Under the pieces are notes generated by a model. That model was given only the letters and a program-made list of their open reading frames with translations. It was not told the DNA's origin and did no database searches. The translations under genes and the position numbers were made by a program. A DNA stretch of 64,000 nt from Escherichia phage KEP2: the sequence record PP047752. One strand, written 5' to 3'. Of the stretch, positions 2,569 to 8,033 are shown in pieces. Each line of letters starts with the position of its first letter. The first letter of the stretch is position 1.

Positions 2569-2940
2569 ATGAAAAACAGAACAAACAAAGGCCAGTTTAA
2601 AAAAGGCCAGTCTGGAAACCCATCTGGAAGACCAAAAGGCTCTCGTAACAAAAGCTCACTTGTAAAAGCTCAACTGACCATTGATAATTCTGCTGAGTTT
2701 GCTGCAAAGTTGTTTGAAGCGATTGTTACAAGGGACGCTGCTAAGCTTGCAGAGTTCGGGTTAAACACAGATGACGTAACCATCAAGAGCATGATTGAGG
2801 TCGGTAAAACTATCTTTACTCACTCAGCAGGTGAGATGAAAGCACTTGCAGCAGACACTAAGAAGACTCCTGATAATGGTGGTCAGTCACAGACAGATAA
2901 CAAACCAACGTTCTCTGCTGTAGCGACTCTCAAAAAATAA
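2569..2940 (+). CDS. hypothetical protein with Gly/Pro/Lys-rich N-terminus (GNPSGRPKGSRNK)
   Basis: 123-aa ORF downstream of promoter-like region. Confidence 0.5.
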   Translation: MKNRTNKGQFKKGQSGNPSGRPKGSRNKSSLVKAQLTIDNSAEFAAKLFEAIVTRDAAKLAEFGLNTDDVTIKSMIEVGKTIFTHSAGEMKALAADTKKTPDNGGQSQTDNKPTFSAVATLKK

Positions 2941-3021: not shown

Positions 3022-4437
3022 ATGAGCGAATTATTTAAACATGCGCACCTTCATGCAGGTCGAACTGAAAATGGTGCTGTAAACCATACTTCATCAATGT
3101 CTGCTCTGGTAGACTTCTACAAAGCCGCTGGCTCAAGCCGTAGCAATGTAGAAATTTTACCAGACCTGTTCTACAAAGCTTTGCGTGAGGATGTTGATGT
3201 TGCAGTTCGTATTTTACTGCATATGCGAGATGTAAGAGAAGGTATGGGTGAGCGTAAAGCTTTCCGAACTGTTTTACTTCAAGCGATTGAAGATAAAGTT
3301 TTAGAACCTACACAGGTTCTTCGCATTATGGATAAGATTGCAGAGCTTGGTCGTTTTGATGACTTCAAAATCTTCGTAGGTACTCGTTTTGAGACAGATG
3401 CCTTCAAACATTTAGAAGCAGCATTACTAGACCCTGCAACAGCAGGTTTAGCAGCTAAGTGGTTACCACGAGTAAAACCACGCCACAAACAGTTTGTAAA
3501 ACGTTTCTGTAAGTTTGCAAACTTAAGTGAGAAGGAGTATCGCACACTGTTATCTGCACTGTCTGATACAGTTGAGCAAAAAATCTCTGCTAATGAGTTT
3601 GGTAAGATTGACTACAGCAAGATTCCTTCACTCGCTGCTGCACGTTACCAAAAGCTCTTTAACCGTAAAGATGGGGAACGTTACAAAGCTTACATTGAGT
3701 CCCTCTCAAAAGGTGAGGCTAAGATTAACGCTGGTGCTGTTTACCCATACGATGTGATTAAATCTATCAAGTATGGTAATGCAGATGTTGCTAATGAGCA
3801 GTGGAAAGCACTACCAAACTGGATGGCAGATGGTGAAAACATCTTGTGTATGACTGATGTTTCAAGCTCAATGTCTTGGGTGAATCTTGGTTCAATCACT
3901 GCCCTTGATATTGGTGTATCACTTGCCTTGTATGTAGCAGAACGCAATACAGGTTGCTTTAAGAATGAGTTAATGGTTTATTCAACAAACCCTCACTTCA
4001 TCGAACTGAGTGGTGATTTACGAAACCGTCATCGTCAGGTAATGCGTCATGTTGAATATGGCTCAACTAACTTACAAGCAGCTTTTGACCGCATTCTTGA
4101 GATAGGTAAGAGAAACAACTTGACTCAGAAAGATATGCCAAGTAAGCTTATCATCTTCTCTGATATGGAGTTTAATCAGGTTGATGGTGCAAATGGTCGT
4201 ACAAACTTTGAAGCAATTCAGAGTAAGTACAAAAAAGCTGGATACGAAATGCCACAACTAGTATTCTGGTACTTAGCAAACCGTAATGGTACTTGCGAAG
4301 TATCTGTTAAGGATAATGGTGTAGCAATGGTATCAGGGTTCTCTCCAGCCACTTTAAAAGCTCTGCTTGGTGGTGAGAAGTTTGACCCAATCAGCGTAAT
4401 GCTCAAAGCAGTAATGATTGACCGTTACATCTGGTAA
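3022..4437 (+). CDS. vWA-domain protein, candidate Ro60/Rsr-like (TROVE-vWA) RNA-binding protein
   Basis: 471 aa; MIDAS-type D-x-S-x-S (MTDVSSSMSW) and downstream LIIFSDMEF motif resemble the Ro60 vWA domain as I recall it; helical N-terminal ~270 aa; lies just upstream of tRNA/Y-RNA-like cluster. TROVE assignment is not verified. Confidence 0.45.
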   Translation: MSELFKHAHLHAGRTENGAVNHTSSMSALVDFYKAAGSSRSNVEILPDLFYKALREDVDVAVRILLHMRDVREGMGERKAFRTVLLQAIEDKVLEPTQVLRIMDKIAELGRFDDFKIFVGTRFETDAFKHLEAALLDPATAGLAAKWLPRVKPRHKQFVKRFCKFANLSEKEYRTLLSALSDTVEQKISANEFGKIDYSKIPSLAAARYQKLFNRKDGERYKAYIESLSKGEAKINAGAVYPYDVIKSIKYGNADVANEQWKALPNWMADGENILCMTDVSSSMSWVNLGSITALDIGVSLALYVAERNTGCFKNELMVYSTNPHFIELSGDLRNRHRQVMRHVEYGSTNLQAAFDRILEIGKRNNLTQKDMPSKLIIFSDMEFNQVDGANGRTNFEAIQSKYKKAGYEMPQLVFWYLANRNGTCEVSVKDNGVAMVSGFSPATLKALLGGEKFDPISVMLKAVMIDRYIW

Positions 4438-4455
4438 AAAGTTTTAAAAAGGGTA

Positions 4456-4484
4456 TTGACAATGTGTTTGATACCCTTTAATAT
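4456..4484 (+). promoter_or_regulatory. sigma70-like promoter (TTGACA-17-TAATAT) leading the tRNA array
   Basis: TTGACA 4456-4461, 17-nt spacer, TAATAT 4479-4484; flanked by GGGTAT/ATACCC inverted repeat. Confidence 0.55.
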
Positions 4485-4546
4485 GTTCTACATAGAAACG
4501 AAATGAGAGCTTTTCTAAGATACTGAAAAATATTTTAAAAAAGTTC

Positions 4547-4580
4547 TTGACAACCACTAAAAAATAATGTTAAAGTGGTT
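4547..4580 (+). promoter_or_regulatory. second TTGACA box with ACCACT/AGTGGT inverted repeat
   Basis: TTGACA 4547-4552; weak -10 candidates; palindrome arms 4553-4558 and 4575-4580. Confidence 0.35.
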
Positions 4581-4602
4581 ACATAGAGTTTGAAAAGTTT
4601 AT

Positions 4603-4679
4603 CTCTGTTTAGCTCAGCTTGGTAGAGCGTTCCGTTTGGGGCGGTAAGGCCGGAGGTTCAAGTCCTCCAACAGAGACCA
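4603..4679 (+). tRNA. tRNA-Pro (anticodon TGG)
   Basis: Acceptor complementarity, TAGCTCAG D-arm, anticodon loop TTTGGGG, T-arm GGAGG-TTCAAGT-CCTCC. Confidence 0.7.
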
Positions 4680-4686
4680 AATTAAT

Positions 4687-4764
4687 GTTCCAGTAGACAA
4701 AATGGTAAAGTCACCACTCTTTCAAAGTGGATATTTGAGGGTTCAAATCCCTTCTGGAACGCCA
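4687..4764 (+). tRNA. tRNA-Glu (anticodon TTC)
   Basis: Acceptor GTTCCAG/CTGGAAC, anticodon stem CCACT/AGTGG with loop CTTTCAA, T-loop TTCAAAT, CCA encoded. Confidence 0.7.
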
Positions 4765-4771
4765 GTTTTGA

Positions 4772-4844
4772 CAGAAGACCAATTACAGCAAACTTAATCT
4801 TATTCATCTGACACGAAATCGGACAAAGAAGAGGTTTGGTCTGG
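4772..4844 (+). repeat. hairpin module A of CAGAAGACC…GGTCTGG family
   Basis: 5' CAGAAGACCAA pairs with 3' TTGGTCTGG; CAGCAA box in loop. Confidence 0.5.
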
Positions 4845-4855
4845 TCATTAAGAAT

Positions 4856-4932
4856 TGCGGGTATAGAGAAAGGGCGTCTCACATGTCTCATTAGCATGGT
4901 ATCGGCAGGTTCGACTCCTGCACCCGCCTCCA
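4856..4932 (+). tRNA. tRNA with anticodon CAT (Met or Ile2)
   Basis: D-stem GAGA/TCTC, anticodon stem CATGT/GCATG with loop CTCATTA, T-arm GCAGG-TTCGACT-CCTGC, CCA encoded; one acceptor mismatch. Confidence 0.55.
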
Positions 4933-4938
4933 ATTTTG

Positions 4939-4998
4939 CAGAAGACCGTATTCAGCAACAAAATACTTTTTGCGGATAAAAGAAAAAACACGGTCTGG
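4939..4998 (+). repeat. hairpin module B of CAGAAGACC…GGTCTGG family
   Basis: 5' CAGAAGACCGT pairs with 3' ACGGTCTGG (compensatory change relative to A and C); CAGCAA box. Confidence 0.5.
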
Positions 4999-5009
4999 CA
5001 ATGTATTAA

Positions 5010-5086
5010 GGTTAGGAAGCACATAAGGTATGTGCGGTCGCCTGTTAAGCGAATGGCACAGGGTTCGAATCCCTGACTAACCGCCA
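5010..5086 (+). tRNA. tRNA-Asn (anticodon GTT)
   Basis: D-stem GCAC/GTGC, anticodon loop CTGTTAA, T-arm CAGGG-TTCGAAT-CCCTG, CCA encoded. Confidence 0.7.
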
Positions 5087-5173
5087 AATTATAATAAGTA
5101 TTTCAAGATGATGTTTTGAGAGGGCTATTTAGCCCCTCCCTTAAAGAGTTCTTACGAGTATTCTTTAAAGGAG

Positions 5174-5248
5174 CAGAAGACCAAATTCAGCAAGTACGTA
5201 TGATATTTTCAAGCCAATCAAATTTTGAAAAATTTAAACTTGGTCTGG
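5174..5248 (+). repeat. hairpin module C of CAGAAGACC…GGTCTGG family
   Basis: 5' CAGAAGACCAA pairs with 3' TTGGTCTGG; CAGCAA box. Confidence 0.5.
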
Positions 5249-5261
5249 CTCAACAAATTTA

Positions 5262-5393
5262 CAGAAGACCGTTTACAGCAAAACTTAAACAATCTATTTC
5301 TCCGGTAAAGAAAAGGTGAAGGTTCGATTCCTTCACTCGGCAGATGTCGAGTTGGTGTAATGGTAACACTTAAGATGATAAACAACGGTCTGG
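5262..5393 (+). ncRNA. candidate Y-RNA-like (YrlA-like) ncRNA with permuted tRNA-like core
   Basis: Terminal stem AGACCG(5266-5271)/CGGTCT(5386-5391); inside, T-arm GAAGG-TTCGATT-CCTTC (5318-5334), 7-bp acceptor-like stem ACTCGGC/GTCGAGT closed by AGAT loop (5335-5352), D-arm GTGT-AATGGTA-ACAC (5355-5369). Confidence 0.45.
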
Positions 5394-5542
5394 TAATTAT
5401 CTTTGTAGGTGAGCTATTAAGCTTACCTGTGAGTATGCGACCACAAAGGGTGAAAGGGTAAATTCTAGATTTAAACCCAACAAGGCACATCGCTACAGAC
5501 CTTAAGCAAGTCTGGGTAGCTTATCTACAAAGATAATTTAAT

Positions 5543-5618
5543 GGAAGTGTAGCAGAATGGTGATGCGGCAGACTTTTAATCTGACAGGCGATGGGTTCGA
5601 ATCCCTCCACTTCTACCA
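5543..5618 (+). tRNA. tRNA-Lys (anticodon TTT)
   Basis: Acceptor GGAAGTG/CACTTCT, anticodon loop CTTTTAA, T-loop TTCGAAT, CCA encoded. Confidence 0.6.
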
Positions 5619-5622
5619 ATAT

Positions 5623-5699
5623 GGTTCAGTCGCAGATAAGGTAATGCAGGGGTTTCATAAGCCCTTTGAATGTGGGTTAGATTCCCATCTGAACCTCCA
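5623..5699 (+). tRNA. tRNA with anticodon CAT (Met or Ile2)
   Basis: Acceptor GGTTCAG/CTGAACC, anticodon stem GGGGT/GCCCT with loop TTCATAA; T-loop atypical (TTAGATT). Confidence 0.5.
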
Positions 5700-5701
5700 A
5701 T

Positions 5702-5776
5702 TGTGGGTTAGCATAAATGGTAATGCAAACGGCTGATAACCGTTAGAAGAGGGTTCGATACCCTCACCTACAACCA
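5702..5776 (+). tRNA. tRNA-Ile (anticodon GAT)
   Basis: D-stem GCAT/ATGC, perfect anticodon stem AACGG/CCGTT with loop CTGATAA, T-arm GAGGG-TTCGATA-CCCTC, CCA encoded. Confidence 0.75.
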
Positions 5777-5791
5777 ATTTCAATAAAGTTG

Positions 5792-5820
5792 TTGACATTG
5801 AGATGTGACCACTTTATAGT
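5792..5820 (+). promoter_or_regulatory. sigma70-like promoter (TTGACA-17-TATAGT) inside the tRNA array
   Basis: TTGACA 5792-5797, 17-nt spacer, TATAGT 5815-5820. Confidence 0.55.
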
Positions 5821-6113
5821 AACTAAAATACTTCATAATATGTATAATTCAAACACCAATACATGAGCGTTAGACGTAACACAATGTGGGGAAATTTGTT
5901 GTACATATTCTGAATAGTTTTCGTTGCGTAGCGTCTATTTTGCAAATTTAAAATAAATGCAAACGACAATGTTTTTCTGGCAGTAGCTTGATAGGCTAAA
6001 CACCAGTGAGGTCTTCCAATCCCTCATCAAAGAATTTGGCGTACTCGCCCACGGTATGATTAATAAGGTGGGCATCTTTAAGGGCTTTCTAAGAGAGTCT
6101 TTAAAGATAATTA

Positions 6114-6195
6114 CGGGGCGTATCTCAGCGGTCTTCTAAACCGCCGTTAACCGAGTAAGTGGAGTATGCGGGTTCGAGTCCTGCCGCCTCGACCA
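6114..6195 (+). tRNA. atypical tRNA-like element (T-arm, acceptor and TCT anticodon-like loop; no recognisable D-arm)
   Basis: Acceptor CGGGGCG/CGCCTCG plus CCA, T-arm GCGGG-TTCGAGT-CCTGC, stem-loop GCGGT-CTTCTAA-ACCGC; 82 nt. Confidence 0.4.
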
Positions 6196-6209
6196 ATTTT
6201 GGAGAAATC

Positions 6210-6557
6210 ATGAAAACTTGTATTAGGTGCAAACTTAGCAAGGATGAAAATGATTTCTACATGAAAGATGGTAAGAGAACTCATTCATACTGTAAAAAGT
6301 GTGTTAATGAGCAAACCATAGAAAGACAAAGAGCACTTAAACTTTCAGCTATTGAGTACAAAGGTGGGGTTTGTCATGATTGTGGTAAAAGGTATCATCC
6401 AGCAGTGTATGACTTCCATCATTTGAATCCTTCAGAGAAAGATTTTAACATTGGTCATAGAAAAAGTCTGAAGTTCTCTCAAGAACTAAAAGATGAACTT
6501 GACAAATGTGTTTTGCTATGTTCAAATTGCCATAGGGTAAGACATGCAAAGTATTAG
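6210..6557 (+). CDS. HNH homing-endonuclease-like protein
   Basis: CxxC…CxxC zinc pairs and HH…N…CH motif (YDFHHLNP…CSNCHRVRH); start taken at ATG 6210 because track start 6159 overlaps the tRNA-like element. Confidence 0.7.
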   Translation: MKTCIRCKLSKDENDFYMKDGKRTHSYCKKCVNEQTIERQRALKLSAIEYKGGVCHDCGKRYHPAVYDFHHLNPSEKDFNIGHRKSLKFSQELKDELDKCVLLCSNCHRVRHAKY

Positions 6558-6694
6558 TTAGCAGATTGCTTAGACGACCTTATCGGGTCTCCGTGTAAGG
6601 AGGTGGTCTGTATCTCATGTTTTCCAGAACATGTAAATAATCTGAGAAGGGGCTTTACAGTGTTGCGAAAATACGGTAAGCTTCGAATTATAGT

Positions 6695-6776
6695 GTGGGA
6701 CGATGTTAAGACTCTAAGGCATGAGCAACGGCCTCCAAAACCGTTTCAAAGTGGTTCAACTCCTCCGTCCCATGCC
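6695..6776 (+). tRNA. tRNA-Trp-like (anticodon CCA), atypical length
   Basis: Acceptor GTGGGAC/GTCCCAT plus CCA, anticodon loop CTCCAAA; D-region too long for a canonical fold. Confidence 0.4.
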
Positions 6777-6790
6777 AAAGTCTTATTAGG

Positions 6791-6878
6791 GGTAGGTAGC
6801 GGCTAATGGTAGCCAAACTGTCTTGAAAACAGTTGCCACTGTAGAGATACGGTGAGGGTTCGACTCCTTTACTTACCG
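6791..6878 (+). tRNA. tRNA-Ser (anticodon TGA), long variable arm
   Basis: Acceptor GGTAGGT/ACTTACC, anticodon stem ACTGT/ACAGT with loop CTTGAAA, ~20-nt variable arm, T-loop TTCGACT. Confidence 0.6.
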
Positions 6879-7135
6879 CCTAATAAGATTTAAAGCCAAG
6901 CTTCATTCGGATGTTGCTTTGGTATCCCTCGTGTATTGTCGTACACACTGATAAAGCACCTAGTAGGTGTCACGGAGAAGAGATAATATCAAGCTCTCCA
7001 AAGGTTCTAGTCACCGGATTAAACAAGACTATGCAAAGACCAATTTAGGTCTTTTTAGAGGGCTTCTAAGGTTATTACAGCTTGTTGTGGAACCTTGTTG
7101 CTTAGGTTCTTAGAAGTTCTCTAAAAAGATTTAAT

Positions 7136-7212
7136 GCACCTATAGCCCAACTGGTAGAGGCAGCAGACTTAGAATCTGCTCAGTGTGAGTTCGAATCTCT
7201 CTAGGTGTACCA
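7136..7212 (+). tRNA. tRNA with anticodon TAG (Leu codon CUA) but short variable loop
   Basis: Acceptor GCACCTA/TAGGTGT plus CCA, 6-bp anticodon stem AGCAGA/TCTGCT with loop CTTAGAA, T-loop TTCGAAT. Confidence 0.5.
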
Positions 7213-7219
7213 AATTAAT

Positions 7220-7295
7220 GCAGGTGTAGCAAAATGGTTATGCGGCTGACTCTTAATCAGTAAGACGATGGGTTCAATTCCCTCCACCTGTACCA
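7220..7295 (+). tRNA. tRNA-Lys (anticodon CTT)
   Basis: Acceptor GCAGGTG/CACCTGT, anticodon loop CTCTTAA, T-loop TTCAATT, CCA encoded; paralogous to 5543-5618. Confidence 0.6.
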
Positions 7296-7301
7296 AACAT
7301 T

Positions 7302-7377
7302 GGGGATGTAGTTTACATGGTTAAAACATAAGTTTTGCAAACTTAAGTACAGGGTTCAATTCCCTGCTTCTCCACCA
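7302..7377 (+). tRNA. tRNA-Ala (anticodon TGC)
   Basis: D-stem GTTT/AAAC, perfect anticodon stem TAAGT/ACTTA with loop TTTGCAA, T-arm CAGGG-TTCAATT-CCCTG, CCA encoded. Confidence 0.7.
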
Positions 7378-7459
7378 ATTAGTGCATCCATAGTTTAAAT
7401 GGGAAAATTACAGTCTTCCAAACTGAGGTTGAGGGTTCGATTCCCTCTGGATGCTCCAA
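7372..7459 (+). repeat. 88-bp perfect direct repeat, copy 1 (contains tRNA-Gly)
   Basis: Identical to 7785-7872 by direct comparison. Confidence 0.85.
7384..7458 (+). tRNA. tRNA-Gly (anticodon TCC), copy 1
   Basis: Perfect acceptor GCATCCA/TGGATGC, anticodon loop CTTCCAA, T-arm GAGGG-TTCGATT-CCCTC, CCA encoded. Confidence 0.75.
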
Positions 7460-7465
7460 ATTAAT

Positions 7466-7541
7466 GCTCCTATCGTATAATTGGCTATTACGGTTGCCTT
7501 GTAAGCAACTTATCAGGGTTCGAATCCTTGTGGGAGCACCA
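7466..7541 (+). tRNA. tRNA-Thr (anticodon TGT)
   Basis: Acceptor GCTCCTA/TGGGAGC, perfect anticodon stem GTTGC/GCAAC with loop CTTGTAA, T-loop TTCGAAT, CCA encoded. Confidence 0.7.
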
Positions 7542-7543
7542 AT

Positions 7544-7632
7544 TCAGAGGTCAAGTGAAAGACCGCTGGTGTCAACTGAAGACCGTAACAAATTCCACGG
7601 AGTTGAGTTAGCGGCACAACTTCAGACCTCTT
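7544..7632 (+). ncRNA. structured spacer, candidate small RNA related to the AGACC hairpin family
   Basis: Outer stem CAGAGGTC/GACCTCT, inner pairings CTGAAG/CTTCAG and CCGCT/AGCGG; contains CTGAAGACCGTAACAAATT resembling the 5' box of modules A-D. Confidence 0.3.
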
Positions 7633-7636
7633 TCAT

Positions 7637-7711
7637 ACTCGCTTAGTTTATATGGTAAAACACCACCCTTACAAGATGAAGAAAAAGGTTCAAGTCCTTT
7701 AGTGAGTACCA
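7637..7711 (+). tRNA. tRNA-Val-like (anticodon TAC), weak anticodon stem
   Basis: Acceptor ACTCGCT/AGTGAGT plus CCA, D-stem GTTT/AAAC, T-arm AAAGG-TTCAAGT-CCTTT; only 3 of 5 anticodon-stem pairs. Confidence 0.45.
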
Positions 7712-7712
7712 T

Positions 7713-7790
7713 GTTCCAGTATCCCAATTGGCAGAGGATGCAAGCTCAAACCTTGTATTAGTGACGGTTCGAATCCGTCTTGGAACACCA
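7713..7790 (+). tRNA. tRNA with anticodon CAA (Leu codon UUG) but short variable loop
   Basis: Acceptor GTTCCAG/TTGGAAC plus CCA, anticodon stem GCAAG/CTTGT with loop CTCAAAC, T-arm GACGG-TTCGAAT-CCGTC. Confidence 0.5.
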
Positions 7791-7872
7791 ATTAGTGCAT
7801 CCATAGTTTAAATGGGAAAATTACAGTCTTCCAAACTGAGGTTGAGGGTTCGATTCCCTCTGGATGCTCCAA
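7785..7872 (+). repeat. 88-bp perfect direct repeat, copy 2 (contains tRNA-Gly)
   Basis: Identical to 7372-7459. Confidence 0.85.
7797..7871 (+). tRNA. tRNA-Gly (anticodon TCC), copy 2
   Basis: Sequence identical to 7384-7458. Confidence 0.75.
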
Positions 7873-7895
7873 GTTATTTTACTCTCTCTCAATTA

Positions 7896-7968
7896 AAATA
7901 ATAATAATGCCCTGCTATAAGTATTCTTCCTTTCGCTACCGAAGAGTATTTTTAGACAGGGCTTTTTT
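7896..7968 (+). terminator. compound hairpin plus T-run at end of tRNA array
   Basis: GCCCTG…CAGGGC arms followed by TTTTTT. Confidence 0.45.
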
Positions 7969-8033
7969 ACAGAGTTATACTTTATAAGAAGACTTATACA
8001 GTATGTCTCTGACGTACATTGTGGTTTCTCCTT

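What the first reader, a model, noticed from the sequence alone, without database searches (positions are those of the whole stretch)
4772..5248. Family of conserved hairpin modules (CAGAAGACC…CAGCAA…GGTCTGG) between tRNA genes, with compensatory base changes
Four units (4772-4844, 4939-4998, 5174-5248 and the ends of 5262-5393) share a 5' box CAGAAGACCNNWTWCAGCAA and a 3' box GGTCTGG that pair into a 6-7-bp helix. Units A and C carry AGACCAA/TTGGTCT while B and D carry AGACCG(T)/(A)CGGTCT, which is covariation preserving the helix and argues for a structured RNA rather than a DNA motif. They may be smaller paralogs of the Y-RNA-like element, RNA processing signals, or decoy RNAs. A fifth related element lies at 7544-7632 and a short AGACC hairpin at 7037-7056.
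Basis: seen in the sequence. Interest (0 to 1): 0.65.

Follow-up and report, generated by a model that had tools for sequence, protein, structure and literature searches.

The report
Phage Y-like RNAs beside Ro60-like gene
The four repeated hairpin units between the tRNA genes of this Felix O1-type phage are most likely small structured RNAs that partner the Ro60-like protein encoded just upstream, and they closely resemble the enigmatic "Class I" RNAs of social amoebae.

Summary
Four units (4770-4846, 4937-5000, 5172-5250, 5260-5395, + strand) share AGAAGACCNNWTWCAGCAA and GGTCTGG, found together nowhere else in the window.

They fold as a 3-bp outer helix, an A-N-A/G internal loop and a 7-bp inner helix. 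Across relatives 98% of cells pair, and 9 of 10 pairs show compensatory change.

Unit D also carries a permuted tRNA-like domain (V, T, closed "acceptor", D arms), the YrlA Y-RNA layout. The upstream ORF (3022-4437, DUF2828+DUF7788) models as a Ro60 ring plus vWA domain.

The same RNA module lies beside DUF2828 genes in at least 11 phage lineages: an invariant G-C pair, a covarying stem, an (U)UACAGCAA box and a C-U/A-G 3' end.

The best reading is a new sequence type of Y-RNA-like partner RNA, with one tRNA-like form and several short forms. Binding and expression are untested.

Unexpectedly, a covariance model built only from dictyostelid Class I RNAs finds these phage modules: 18 hits at E<0.05 in 208 kb, all on the gene strand, against 1 in 860 kb of control DNA. 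I could not establish whether Dictyostelium has a DUF2828 protein.

The elements at 7544-7632 and 7037-7056 are not members.

The parts
3022..4437 (+). Gene for a 471-aa Ro60-like protein (Pfam DUF2828 + DUF7788/vWA), the proposed protein partner
   Evidence: Pfam hits. AlphaFold2 model with pLDDT 90.4 and pTM 0.90. The Foldseek PDB top 11 hits are all Ro60/TROVE proteins: Xenopus 1yvp/2i91, D. radiodurans 2nvo, Thermus phage phiLo 9kop/9l5y (E 6e-8 to 5e-7, TM up to 0.67, both domains aligned). Homologs occur in 709 phage records.
4456..4576 (+). Two sigma-70-type promoter-like sites (4456-4484 and 4547-4576) upstream of the tRNA/unit cluster
   Evidence: One search gives TTGACA-17-TAATAT and TTGACA-18-TAAAGT with an extended TG. 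These are consensus matches only; the region as a whole is not enriched.
4770..4846 (+). Unit A, short module: GAC[AGA]AGACCAA-UUACAGCAA ... UUGGUCU[G]GUC
   Evidence: Matched end to end by the Class I-derived model R1 (13.8 bits, E 0.013 in 3.7 kb) and by Rfam RF01414 (19.1 bits).
4937..5000 (+). Unit B, short module: UGC[AGA]AGACCGU-AUUCAGCAA ... ACGGUCU[G]GCA
   Evidence: RF01414 gives 24.0 bits (E 0.045 in 636 nt). R1 gives 13.7 bits (E 0.014). In JLBYU28 and Mooglevirus the ortholog's outer helix is UAC/GUA, a compensatory change.
5172..5250 (+). Unit C, short module: AGC[AGA]AGACCAA-AUUCAGCAA ... UUGGUCU[G]GCU
5260..5395 (+). Unit D, long tRNA-like (YrlA-type) module: UAC[AGA]AGACCGUU-UACAGCAA ... 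AACGGUCU[G]GUA
   Evidence: The interior arms are conserved with compensatory changes in 10 long modules from phages of five host phyla.
5293..5316 (+). Unit D 'variable-arm' hairpin
   Evidence: MFE fold. This is the least conserved arm.
5318..5334 (+). Unit D T-arm: GAAGG-UUCGAUU-CCUUC
   Evidence: Partial Rfam tRNA hit at 5285-5335 (22 bits).
5335..5352 (+). Unit D closed 'acceptor' stem-loop: ACUCGGC-AGAU-GUCGAGU
   Evidence: It covaries: Sf13 has ACACG/CGUGU and Moogle has ACCCUUC/GAAGGGU.
5355..5369 (+). Unit D D-arm: GUGU-AAUGGUA-ACAC
5394..5538 (+). Neighbouring 145-nt long-hairpin RNA. It is a separate element, possibly a further partner RNA, and contains a mini-module hairpin at 5496-5515 (CAGACC-UUAAGCAA-GUCUGG).
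   Evidence: z = -6.1. 13 of 33 pairs are compensatory in 5 relatives. The mini-hairpin stem covaries in L123-L127. Its membership of the system is inferred from position only.

Best explanation
The four units are genes for small non-coding RNAs of the Y-RNA kind: three short RNAs (A-C, about 65-77 nt) and one tRNA-like RNA (D, about 135 nt).

They are transcribed with the phage tRNAs from the promoters at about 4456 and 4547. They are probably released by the enzymes that mature the flanking tRNAs, since each unit lies 5-20 nt from a tRNA end or from the next unit.

Each RNA closes its 5' and 3' ends into a conserved platform. The platform is an invariant G-C pair within a covarying helix, flanked by A-A on the 5' side and U-G on the 3' side. 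In this genus a 3x1 internal loop and a 3-bp outer helix extend it. A single-stranded (U)UACAGCAA box follows immediately.

This platform is the proposed binding site for the ring-shaped Ro60-like protein encoded just upstream (3022-4437). The variable interior, which in unit D is a T-arm / closed acceptor / D-arm tRNA mimic, would then act as the effector module. It would tether the protein to other factors, as bacterial Y RNAs tether Rsr to PNPase and attract tRNA enzymes.

The RNP probably serves RNA surveillance or repair, or counter-defence, during infection.

What is shown and what is inferred:
- Shown here: the sequence family, its structure and covariation, the Ro60 fold of the protein, and the co-occurrence of RNA and gene across phages.
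- Shown by others: the orthologous-type protein of the Felixounavirus Bas63 (gp130) counters the Ppl defence system.
- Inferred: transcription and processing, RNA-protein binding, and the role of the box.
For: 1. Family and structure. The box and the 3' complement occur only in these four units. Pairing is 98% with 9 of 10 pairs compensatory in 15 Ounavirinae-type modules. In 40 modules from 11 phage lineages pairing is 96.8% and the first G-C pair is 40/40. G.U wobbles are valid only on the + strand.

2. Unit D has the V-T-AS-D order of YrlA RNAs as described by Chen et al. 2014 (PMC4201824). Arms are conserved with 9 of 13 pairs compensatory in long modules from Escherichia, Shigella, Citrobacter, Klebsiella, Enterococcus, Bacillus, Sinorhizobium and Mycobacterium phages, plus one Yersinia-phage-related metagenomic contig.

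3. The adjacent protein has a Ro60 fold with a vWA domain.

4. Co-occurrence. Modules with stem + ACAGCAA + C(U/A)G lie within 3.5 kb of the DUF2828 gene, on its strand, in Mooglevirus and in metagenomic relatives at 63% and 53-55% protein identity. The same holds for Klebsiella FBKp34, Aeromonas LAh_6 (8 copies), Vibrio BUCT194, Campylobacter NCTC12673, Sinorhizobium phiM12, Listeria LMSP-25, Staphylococcus S-CoN_Ph8, Enterococcus EFGrKN, Bacillus PK-3 and the mycobacteriophages BigCheese and Fezzik. Several of these loci have no tRNA close by.

5. As in bacteria, each lineage has at least one tRNA-like RNA plus shorter ones.

6. Context. The PhageMaP preprint (10.1101/2024.10.10.617714) reports that Bas63 gp130 is Ro60-like, sits directly upstream of the tRNA block and counters Ppl. 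Its authors guessed that Y RNAs hide among the tRNAs. Phage phiLo Ro60 binds two phage-encoded Y-like RNAs and host PNPase (PMC12135203). Listeria phage LMSP-25 has an RtcB-type ligase near its DUF2828 gene.

7. The region is conserved in 217 or more phage records.
Against: - There are no expression, end-mapping or binding data for these RNAs.
- The Rfam YrlA model (RF02553) does not match unit D at any threshold tried, and the CGAA/GNCGAAG motif of known bacterial Y RNAs is absent.
- The protein has no sequence-level TROVE hit. Its relation to Ro60 rests on a predicted structure.
- Folding energies of the single units are not exceptional (z -0.5 to -2.1).
- I registered the constructs for the pair counts by hand, using the invariant G-C pair and the box as anchors. 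The percentage paired is therefore partly circular. The compensatory changes between orthologs are not.
- No convincing module was found within 3.5 kb of the gene in a KVP40-like Vibrio phage.
Confidence: 0.75

Rival explanations
1. The units act on their own as decoy or sponge RNAs, independent of the Ro60-like protein. For example, the tRNA-like unit D could distract host anticodon nucleases or tRNA enzymes, and the ACAGCAA box could titrate a host RNA-binding protein.
For: Unit D mimics the top half of a tRNA. The units sit in a tRNA cluster, and phage tRNAs are thought to counter tRNA-targeting defences. In Dictyostelium the similar Class I RNA DdR-21 is reported to bind an RRM protein, Rnp1A.
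Against: The tight, strand-consistent linkage of the module to DUF2828 genes in at least 11 lineages, including loci without tRNAs, points to a dedicated phage partner. The short units have no tRNA-like part.
Confidence: 0.12
2. The hairpins are merely processing punctuation of the polycistronic tRNA transcript (RNase P/E/III entry sites or spacers) and have no life of their own.
For: Each unit lies between tRNAs, 5-20 nt from a tRNA end. Relatives insert or lose tRNAs around them.
Against: Most tRNA junctions in the same cluster have no such unit; 13 tRNA pairs are separated by only 2-8 nt. The module is found next to DUF2828 genes where no tRNA is adjacent (LAh_6, BigCheese). A 9-nt single-stranded box and an invariant G-C pair conserved from Actinobacteria phages to Proteobacteria phages go well beyond what a spacer needs.
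Confidence: 0.08
3. The repeats work at the DNA level, as protein-binding or partition sites, recombination sites or homing-endonuclease targets. Alternatively, they belong to small ORFs such as 5116-5319.
For: One GenBank record (XTG1) annotates the repeat as a possible StbAB binding site. HNH endonuclease genes are inserted in this region in several relatives. Some records call short hypothetical ORFs here.
Against: Covariation keeps pairing while the sequence changes, including G.U pairs that would be A.C mismatches on the other strand. All 37 model hits are on the gene strand. Indels among relatives break the 67-aa ORF frame.
Confidence: 0.03

Closest known systems
Bacterial and phage Y RNAs of the YrlA/YrlB type with Rsr/Ro60 (Chen et al. 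2014, PMC4201824; Rfam RF02553), and Yrl1/Yrl2 of Thermus phage phiLo (PMC12135203)
   Same: - They are encoded next to, and on the same strand as, a Ro60-fold protein.
- The 5' and 3' ends are joined in a stem that carries the presumed protein site.
- There is one RNA with a T-arm / closed acceptor / D-arm tRNA mimic in permuted order, plus shorter RNAs without it.
- There are several paralogs per genome.
   Different: - The protein is DUF2828/DUF7788 by sequence, not TROVE.
- The conserved RNA signature is AAG-stem-(U)UACAGCAA ... stem-CUG instead of GNCGAA(N)G / CGAA.
- The Rfam YrlA model gives no hit in the window and only a 21-bit partial hit in a mycobacteriophage relative.
- The RNAs are embedded in a tRNA operon.
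Class I RNAs of dictyostelid social amoebae (Rfam RF01414; Kjellin et al. 2021, PMC7919456)
   Same: - A short terminal stem joins the ends, with structure conserved but not sequence.
- The first G pairs invariantly with the C of the 3' CUG.
- AAG lies at the 5' side and CUG(U/G) at the 3' side.
- A single-stranded CCUUACAGCAA-type motif sits directly after the 5' strand, followed by a variable interior.
- Typical length is about 45-85 nt, with multi-copy families.
- A few Class I RNAs even carry T-arm hairpins.
   Different: - Class I RNAs are eukaryotic nuclear genes with a DUSE promoter and are reported as unique to Dictyostelia.
- The one partner shown to bind directly is an RRM protein, Rnp1A. 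Three other proteins associated with DdR-21 (Avesson 2011) could not be checked.
- The window's units score below the Rfam gathering score (24 versus 41.5 bits).
- The window's units have an extra internal loop and outer helix, and end in CUGG.
- A DUF2828 protein in Dictyostelium was not found, but the search was not exhaustive.
Metazoan Y RNAs with Ro60
   Same: The RNA ends are paired into a protein-binding stem with a conserved irregularity. The interior is variable, there are several paralogs, and the partner is a ring-shaped Ro60 with a vWA domain.
   Different: There is no GGUCCGA bulged helix and no La-binding U tail, and a tRNA-like module is present. The GGUC/GACC similarity of the stem is in the opposite orientation and is not conserved in other lineages.
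Bas63 gp130, a Ro60-like counter-defence protein of a Felixounavirus (PhageMaP preprint 10.1101/2024.10.10.617714)
   Same: It comes from the same phage genus (that Bas63 is JohannRWettstein is from my own knowledge). The gene position is the same, directly upstream of the tRNA block, and the protein has the same Ro60-like fold. The authors proposed that Y RNAs exist in that block.
   Different: The preprint points to annotated tRNA genes as candidates and does not describe the inter-tRNA modules, their motif or their spread. I did not confirm orthology of gp130 and the window ORF at sequence level.

Membership tests
Y RNA / YrlA (Rfam RF02553; Chen et al. 2014) | Encoded within a few kb of, and on the same strand as, a Ro60 ortholog | tested here: met
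   The units lie 333-960 nt downstream of ORF 3022-4437 on the + strand. The protein model matches Ro60 structures.
Y RNA / YrlA (Rfam RF02553; Chen et al. 2014) | Partner protein carries a TROVE domain recognisable by sequence | tested here: not met
   Pfam finds DUF2828, DUF7788 and weak VWA_2 only, with no TROVE. A sequence search of the PDB finds nothing.
Y RNA / YrlA (Rfam RF02553; Chen et al. 2014) | tRNA-like domain with T-arm, closed acceptor-like stem-loop and D-arm in that order, inside a stem formed by the RNA ends | tested here: met
   Met for unit D. Not present in units A-C, which would correspond to YrlB-type short Y RNAs.
Y RNA / YrlA (Rfam RF02553; Chen et al. 2014) | Conserved GNCGAA(N)G / CGAA motif near the 5' end | tested here: not met
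   Reading of the four units: the 5' region is CAGAAGACC..., and no GNCGAA motif is present there.
Y RNA / YrlA (Rfam RF02553; Chen et al. 2014) | Match to the Rfam covariance model at gathering score (69 bits) | tested here: not met
   No YrlA hit in the window at gathering threshold or at E<=10. There is a 21.4-bit partial hit only in mycobacteriophage BigCheese.
Y RNA / YrlA (Rfam RF02553; Chen et al. 2014) | Physical binding to Ro60/Rsr (and tethering of PNPase) | not testable with these tools
   Needs RIP/EMSA experiments.
Dictyostelid Class I RNA (Rfam RF01414; Kjellin et al. 2021) | Short stem joining the 5' and 3' ends, with pairing conserved but sequence free | tested here: met
   97-98% of cells paired, and every pair except the first G-C (6 of 7 in the 40-module set, 9 of 10 in the 15-module set) shows compensatory change.
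Dictyostelid Class I RNA (Rfam RF01414; Kjellin et al. 2021) | Invariant 5' G paired with the C of the 3'-terminal CUG(U); AAG start | tested here: met
   The G-C pair is present in 40/40 phage modules. AAG precedes the stem in all four window units. The 3' end is CUGG in the window and CUGU in Aeromonas, Vibrio and Listeria phages.
Dictyostelid Class I RNA (Rfam RF01414; Kjellin et al. 2021) | 11-nt motif CCUUACAGCAA directly after the 5' strand (near-invariant U3, C6, C9, A10, A11) | tested here: met
   Units A and D carry UUACAGCAA, and units B and C carry AUUCAGCAA. The Aeromonas LAh_6 module 3344-3398 carries the full CCUUACAGCAA.
Dictyostelid Class I RNA (Rfam RF01414; Kjellin et al. 2021) | Covariance-model match | tested here: inconclusive
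   Rfam RF01414 gives 24.0 and 19.1 bits against a gathering score of 41.5. My own model from 48 Class I RNAs gives units A and B E 0.013-0.014 in 3.7 kb. It gives 18 hits at E<0.05 in 208 kb of DUF2828 loci against 1 in 860 kb of control. E-values from the short calibration are rough.
Dictyostelid Class I RNA (Rfam RF01414; Kjellin et al. 2021) | Eukaryotic DUSE promoter about 60 nt upstream; occurrence in Dictyostelia only | tested here: not met
   This is a phage operon with sigma-70-like promoters. By this criterion the phage RNAs cannot be filed as Class I RNAs proper.
tRNA | Cloverleaf in the canonical order with an anticodon arm | tested here: not met
   ARAGORN calls no tRNA in any unit. 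Rfam tRNA gives only a 22-bit partial hit in unit D. The arm order is permuted and there is no anticodon arm.

The most novel reading that the evidence does not exclude
Dictyostelid Class I RNAs have been abundant, developmentally regulated and of unknown mechanism since 2004, and are held to be unique to social amoebae. On this reading they are eukaryotic members of the same RNA family as these phage modules. That would make them Y-RNA-type partners of a Ro60-like DUF2828/vWA protein, or of whatever reads the G-C/ACAGCAA platform.

The family would then span phages of at least five bacterial host phyla and eukaryotes. DUF2828 proteins of plants, algae, fungi and springtails would be expected to have similar, still undiscovered RNA partners.
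Probability: 0.45. Interest if true: 0.92.

Novelty: new variant of a known kind. Interest (0 to 1): 0.8.

Why it matters
This supplies concrete candidates for the missing RNA partners of a very widespread phage protein. That protein has homologs in 709 phage records, and one of the same genus is reported to defeat the Ppl defence system. The candidates come with defined ends, a defined recognition platform and obvious mutations to test.

It extends the Ro60/Y-RNA principle (a ring protein plus modular RNAs, one of them a tRNA mimic) to a second, sequence-distinct protein family and RNA signature that current Rfam models do not capture.

If the link to dictyostelid Class I RNAs holds, a twenty-year-old puzzle gains a testable mechanism. 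It would also raise the question of whether the amoebae acquired the system from their bacterial or phage prey.

Tried and rejected
- Exact-pattern scan of IMG/VR for AGAAGACCNNNNNCAGCAA. The rows shown were almost all single chance matches, and only L061, L072 and L076 among them were Felix-like. Those loci were reused as a negative control.
- Rfam at gathering threshold and at E<=10. There was no YrlA or Y_RNA match. Apart from tRNAs, the only recurrent hit on the units was Dicty_Class_I_RNA, below threshold.
- Sequence search of the PDB and NCBIfam for the protein found nothing.
- The afdb50 fold search, which could have revealed a Dictyostelium homolog, was not available.
- Avesson et al. 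2011, which lists the four Class I-binding proteins, and Aspegren 2004 could not be read.
- Peptide-motif searches in the truncated dictyostelid proteomes held as supplements found only unrelated proteins.
- I walked towards eukaryotic DUF2828 proteins with a plant-like N-terminal query that I wrote from memory. It found real plant proteins, and I followed with an exhaustive search of representatives. Cluster names included Closterium, Hemiselmis and Camellia. A last homolog search from a non-plant eukaryotic member found springtails, a beetle and Mortierella. No dictyostelid appeared, but only the top of each list is visible, so this is not evidence of absence.
- The 'fifth element' at 7546-7631 and the hairpin at 7035-7054 were rejected as family members. 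Relatives fetched did not cover them well enough for covariation analysis.
- Small ORFs over the units were rejected because indels in relatives shift the frame.
- One literature search was too broad and returned nothing useful.
Full report
**Where this is.** The window is a Felix O1-type phage. The 4400-8000 region matches 370 phage records, at up to 96.6% identity among the full-length matches, mostly Felixounavirus. The finding lies in the tRNA cluster: 16 tRNAs by ARAGORN and one more by Rfam. The cluster starts about 170 nt downstream of a 471-aa ORF at 3022-4437 on the same strand.

AGAAGACCNNWTWCAGCAA occurs four times without mismatch, at 4773, 4940, 5175 and 5263. Nothing closer than three mismatches occurs elsewhere in 64 kb. 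GGTCTGG ends each unit.

Each unit is 5'-NNC[AGA]AGACCNN ... NNGGUCU[G]GNN-3'. The three outer pairs differ in all four paralogs yet always pair: GAC/GUC, UGC/GCA, AGC/GCU, UAC/GUA. The refined limits are A 4770-4846, B 4937-5000, C 5172-5250 and D 5260-5395.

**The structure is selected at the RNA level.** Relatives at decreasing similarity keep the same layout with different helix sequences. These relatives are JLBYU28, Shigella phage Sf13, Citrobacter phage Moogle, one metagenomic contig whose Ro-like protein is 63% identical, and two further loci at 53-55% (Yersinia phage vB_YenM_P778 and a related contig).
- L127 has GAC[AUA]AGAAUC / GAUUCU[G]GUC.
- L126 has UGC[ACA]GGACUGU / ACAGUCC[A]GCA.
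- Window unit B has UGC/GCA, whereas its ortholog in JLBYU28 and Mooglevirus has UAC/GUA.
- Moogle has G.U and U.G wobbles that would be mismatches on the other strand.

On 15 distinct modules, 98% of cells pair and 9 of 10 pairs change on both sides. No shuffle out of 500 does as well, and sliding the partner by 1-3 columns drops pairing to 22-40%. I registered these constructs by hand on the invariant A4, A6, G8 and C19. The percentage paired therefore leans towards the structure, but the ortholog-to-ortholog compensations do not. Single-sequence folding energies are unremarkable.

**Unit D is a tRNA mimic in permuted order.** Inside its closing stem the MFE fold gives four elements:
- a variable hairpin;
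- a T-arm, GAAGG-UUCGAUU-CCUUC (5318-5334);
- a closed 7-bp stem-loop in the place of the acceptor stem (5335-5352);
- a D-arm, GUGU-AAUGGUA-ACAC (5355-5369).

That is the V-T-AS-D order that defines YrlA-type bacterial Y RNAs (Chen et al. 2014). The AS stem is rewritten in relatives: ACUCGGC/GUCGAGU in the window, ACACG/CGUGU in Sf13 and ACCCUUC/GAAGGGU in Moogle. ARAGORN and the Rfam tRNA model do not accept unit D as a tRNA.

**The neighbouring protein has a Ro60 fold.** Pfam sees DUF2828 plus DUF7788 and a weak vWA, with no TROVE. An AlphaFold2 model from a 58-sequence alignment is confident, with pLDDT 90.4 and pTM 0.90. Its 11 best Foldseek matches in the PDB are all Ro60/TROVE proteins aligned over both the ring and the vWA domain: Xenopus, Deinococcus and Thermus phage phiLo, at E 6e-8 to 5e-7 and TM up to 0.67. 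GenBank annotators already call the mycobacteriophage homologs 'Ro-like RNA binding protein'. Those homologs are also DUF2828/DUF7788.

**The RNA travels with the gene.** I fetched the flanks of DUF2828 genes from unrelated phages. I then scanned them with a simple descriptor: a C(A/U)GCAA box preceded within 0-6 nt by a strand that pairs 14-170 nt downstream. Modules appear next to the gene, on its strand, in the following phages:
- mycobacteriophage BigCheese, three in a row, the middle one with T, AS and D arms, and mycobacteriophage Fezzik;
- Klebsiella FBKp34, Aeromonas LAh_6 (eight copies) and Vibrio BUCT194;
- Campylobacter NCTC12673 and Sinorhizobium phiM12;
- Listeria LMSP-25, Staphylococcus S-CoN_Ph8, Enterococcus EFGrKN and Bacillus PK-3.

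Each lineage examined for long forms has one tRNA-like member. An RNAalifold run on ten of them recovers the T, AS and D arms, with 9 of 13 pairs compensatory.

Over 40 modules from 11 lineages the first G-C pair is invariant (40/40), while all other stem positions use several Watson-Crick pair types. Pairing is 96.8%, against 29-45% for slid controls. The pair just outside it also covaries: A-U, G-C or U-A. A KVP40-like Vibrio phage showed no convincing module within 3.5 kb.

**How it most likely works.** By analogy with Rsr/Y RNA systems, the closed ends plus the adjacent single-stranded box form the protein-binding platform, and the interior is an exchangeable effector module. Transcription from the promoter-like sites at 4456 and 4547 and excision by tRNA-processing enzymes are inferred from position only.

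Function is suggested by three observations made by others:
- phiLo phage Ro60 binds two phage Y-like RNAs and host PNPase;
- the Salmonella rsr-yrlBA-rtcBA operon links Ro, Y RNAs and RNA repair, and Listeria phage LMSP-25 has an RtcB-type ligase 1.3 kb from its DUF2828 gene;

The modules described here are better candidates than the annotated tRNAs.

**Comparison with known families.** These RNAs work like YrlA/YrlB, but they fail several defining tests for that family. There is no CGAA-type motif, no Rfam YrlA match and no sequence-level TROVE partner. I therefore file them as a new sequence variant of the Y-RNA kind.

**The unexpected link.** The only non-tRNA Rfam family that kept hitting the units was Dicty_Class_I_RNA. 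Its consensus is GaUcuC-CUUACAGCAA ... GagAuC-UG. It gave 24.0 bits on unit B and 19.1 on unit A, and 24.6-25.7 bits on Mooglevirus orthologs, all below the gathering score of 41.5.

Kjellin et al. 2021 define Class I RNAs by the following features, and report them as unique to Dictyostelia:
- a 6-bp terminal stem whose sequence is free;
- a completely conserved 5' G that pairs with the C of the terminal CUGU;
- a start at AAG;
- an unstructured 11-nt motif, CCUUACAGCAA, directly after the 5' strand.

Every one of these features is present in the phage family.

To test this without the multiple-family penalty, I built a covariance model from 48 Class I RNAs of six dictyostelid species only. 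I searched it over the window plus 17 DUF2828 loci, 207,685 nt on both strands. It returned 37 hits at E<=10, all on the gene strand, and 18 of them had E<0.05. Almost all lie at the modules I had already located. The best is Aeromonas LAh_6 3344-3398, which reads GGUUCCUUACAGCAA ... GGGAACCUG (26.6 bits, E 1.9e-4).

Within the window's tRNA region, units A and B score E 0.013-0.014. In 859,774 nt of unrelated viral contigs the same model gave one hit below E 0.05. Three of its ten hits at E<=5 were the Felix-like contigs in that set. E-values from the short calibration are rough, but the contrast is large.

In addition, three Class I RNAs contain T-arm hairpins in the authors' own structure file: asu_can_20, ppa_can_99 and DpuR-22, each with GGUUCGA(A)UCC. 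This echoes the tRNA-like members of the phage family. No paper in the library mentions Class I RNAs together with Y RNAs.

**What I could not settle.** I could not determine whether dictyostelids encode a DUF2828 protein. Eukaryotic DUF2828+DUF7788 proteins certainly exist, in plants, a charophyte, a cryptophyte, springtails, a beetle and Mortierella. None from a dictyostelid surfaced in the visible parts of those lists. The similarity of the RNAs is therefore a result, whereas common descent or a common protein reader is an inference.

**Other elements.** The 145-nt hairpin at 5394-5538 is a separate conserved structured RNA (z -6.1, 13 of 33 pairs compensatory). It carries a mini version of the motif at 5496-5515. 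The elements at 7546-7631 and 7035-7054 are not family members.

**Verdict.** The best-supported reading is a family of Y-RNA-like partner RNAs of the adjacent Ro60-like protein, which is a new variant of a known kind. The lead connecting them to dictyostelid Class I RNAs is statistically well supported but biologically unproven.

Noticed in passing
window 5394-5538 (mini-hairpin 5496-5515): A 145-nt long-hairpin RNA lies directly after unit D (z = -6.1). Its closing stem shows compensatory changes in relatives. It contains the hairpin CAGACC-UUAAGCAA-GUCUGG, which looks like a minimal version of the module and whose stem covaries in L123-L127. No Rfam family matches it.
   Followed up: partly
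window 2569-2940: A DUF5681 ORF sits immediately upstream of the Ro60-like gene. The same gene pair is kept in relatives at 53-63% protein identity (L125-L127). Its function is unknown, and it may belong to the same module.
   Followed up: no
window 6114-6192 and 6210-6557: Rfam calls a tRNA at 6114-6192 (31.7 bits) that ARAGORN misses. It corresponds in position to the tRNA-Arg(TCT) of relatives. An HNH endonuclease ORF follows directly.
   Followed up: no
window 5087-5171: The window lacks the tRNA-Tyr and tRNA-Asp genes that many relatives carry after tRNA-Asn (for example EF202P1, L001 932-1103). Two hairpins occupy the gap here.
   Followed up: partly
window 7384-7458 and 7797-7871: There are two identical copies of tRNA-Gly(UCC).
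   Followed up: no
Kjellin et al. 2021 supplement file 48 (not in the window): Three dictyostelid Class I RNAs (asu_can_20, ppa_can_99, DpuR-22) contain T-arm-like hairpins with GGUUCGA(A)UCC. The long Class I RNAs DdR-66/67 and DpuR-27 to DpuR-30 share another conserved interior module (GGUGUAGAAUAGGUGGGAG ... GUGAAAUACCACC). Class I RNAs therefore look modular, as Y RNAs are.
   Followed up: partly
L098 3705-3729 (- strand), IMG/VR contig: A 25-nt hairpin, GUUUCU-CUUACAGCAAA-AGAAAC-UG, scored 24.7 bits with the Class I-derived model in the control set. No DUF2828 gene lies within the fetched stretch. It may be a genuine mini-module or a chance match.
   Followed up: partly
L134 6308-7519 (Listeria phage LMSP-25): An RtcB-type 'tRNA-splicing ligase' gene lies 1.3 kb downstream of the DUF2828 gene. 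This recalls the bacterial rsr-yrl-rtcBA arrangement.
   Followed up: no
GenBank KT184316 (phage XTG1), region matching window 4765-5545: The repeat is annotated there as 'direct repeat sequence1 posible binding site of StbAB'. The covariation found here does not support that DNA-level reading.
   Followed up: partly
Protein cluster of P0259 (Camellia): Some plant DUF2828 proteins are named 'Uncharacterized protein L728'. To my knowledge that name derives from a mimivirus protein, which suggests that giant viruses of amoebae also encode this family.
   Followed up: no
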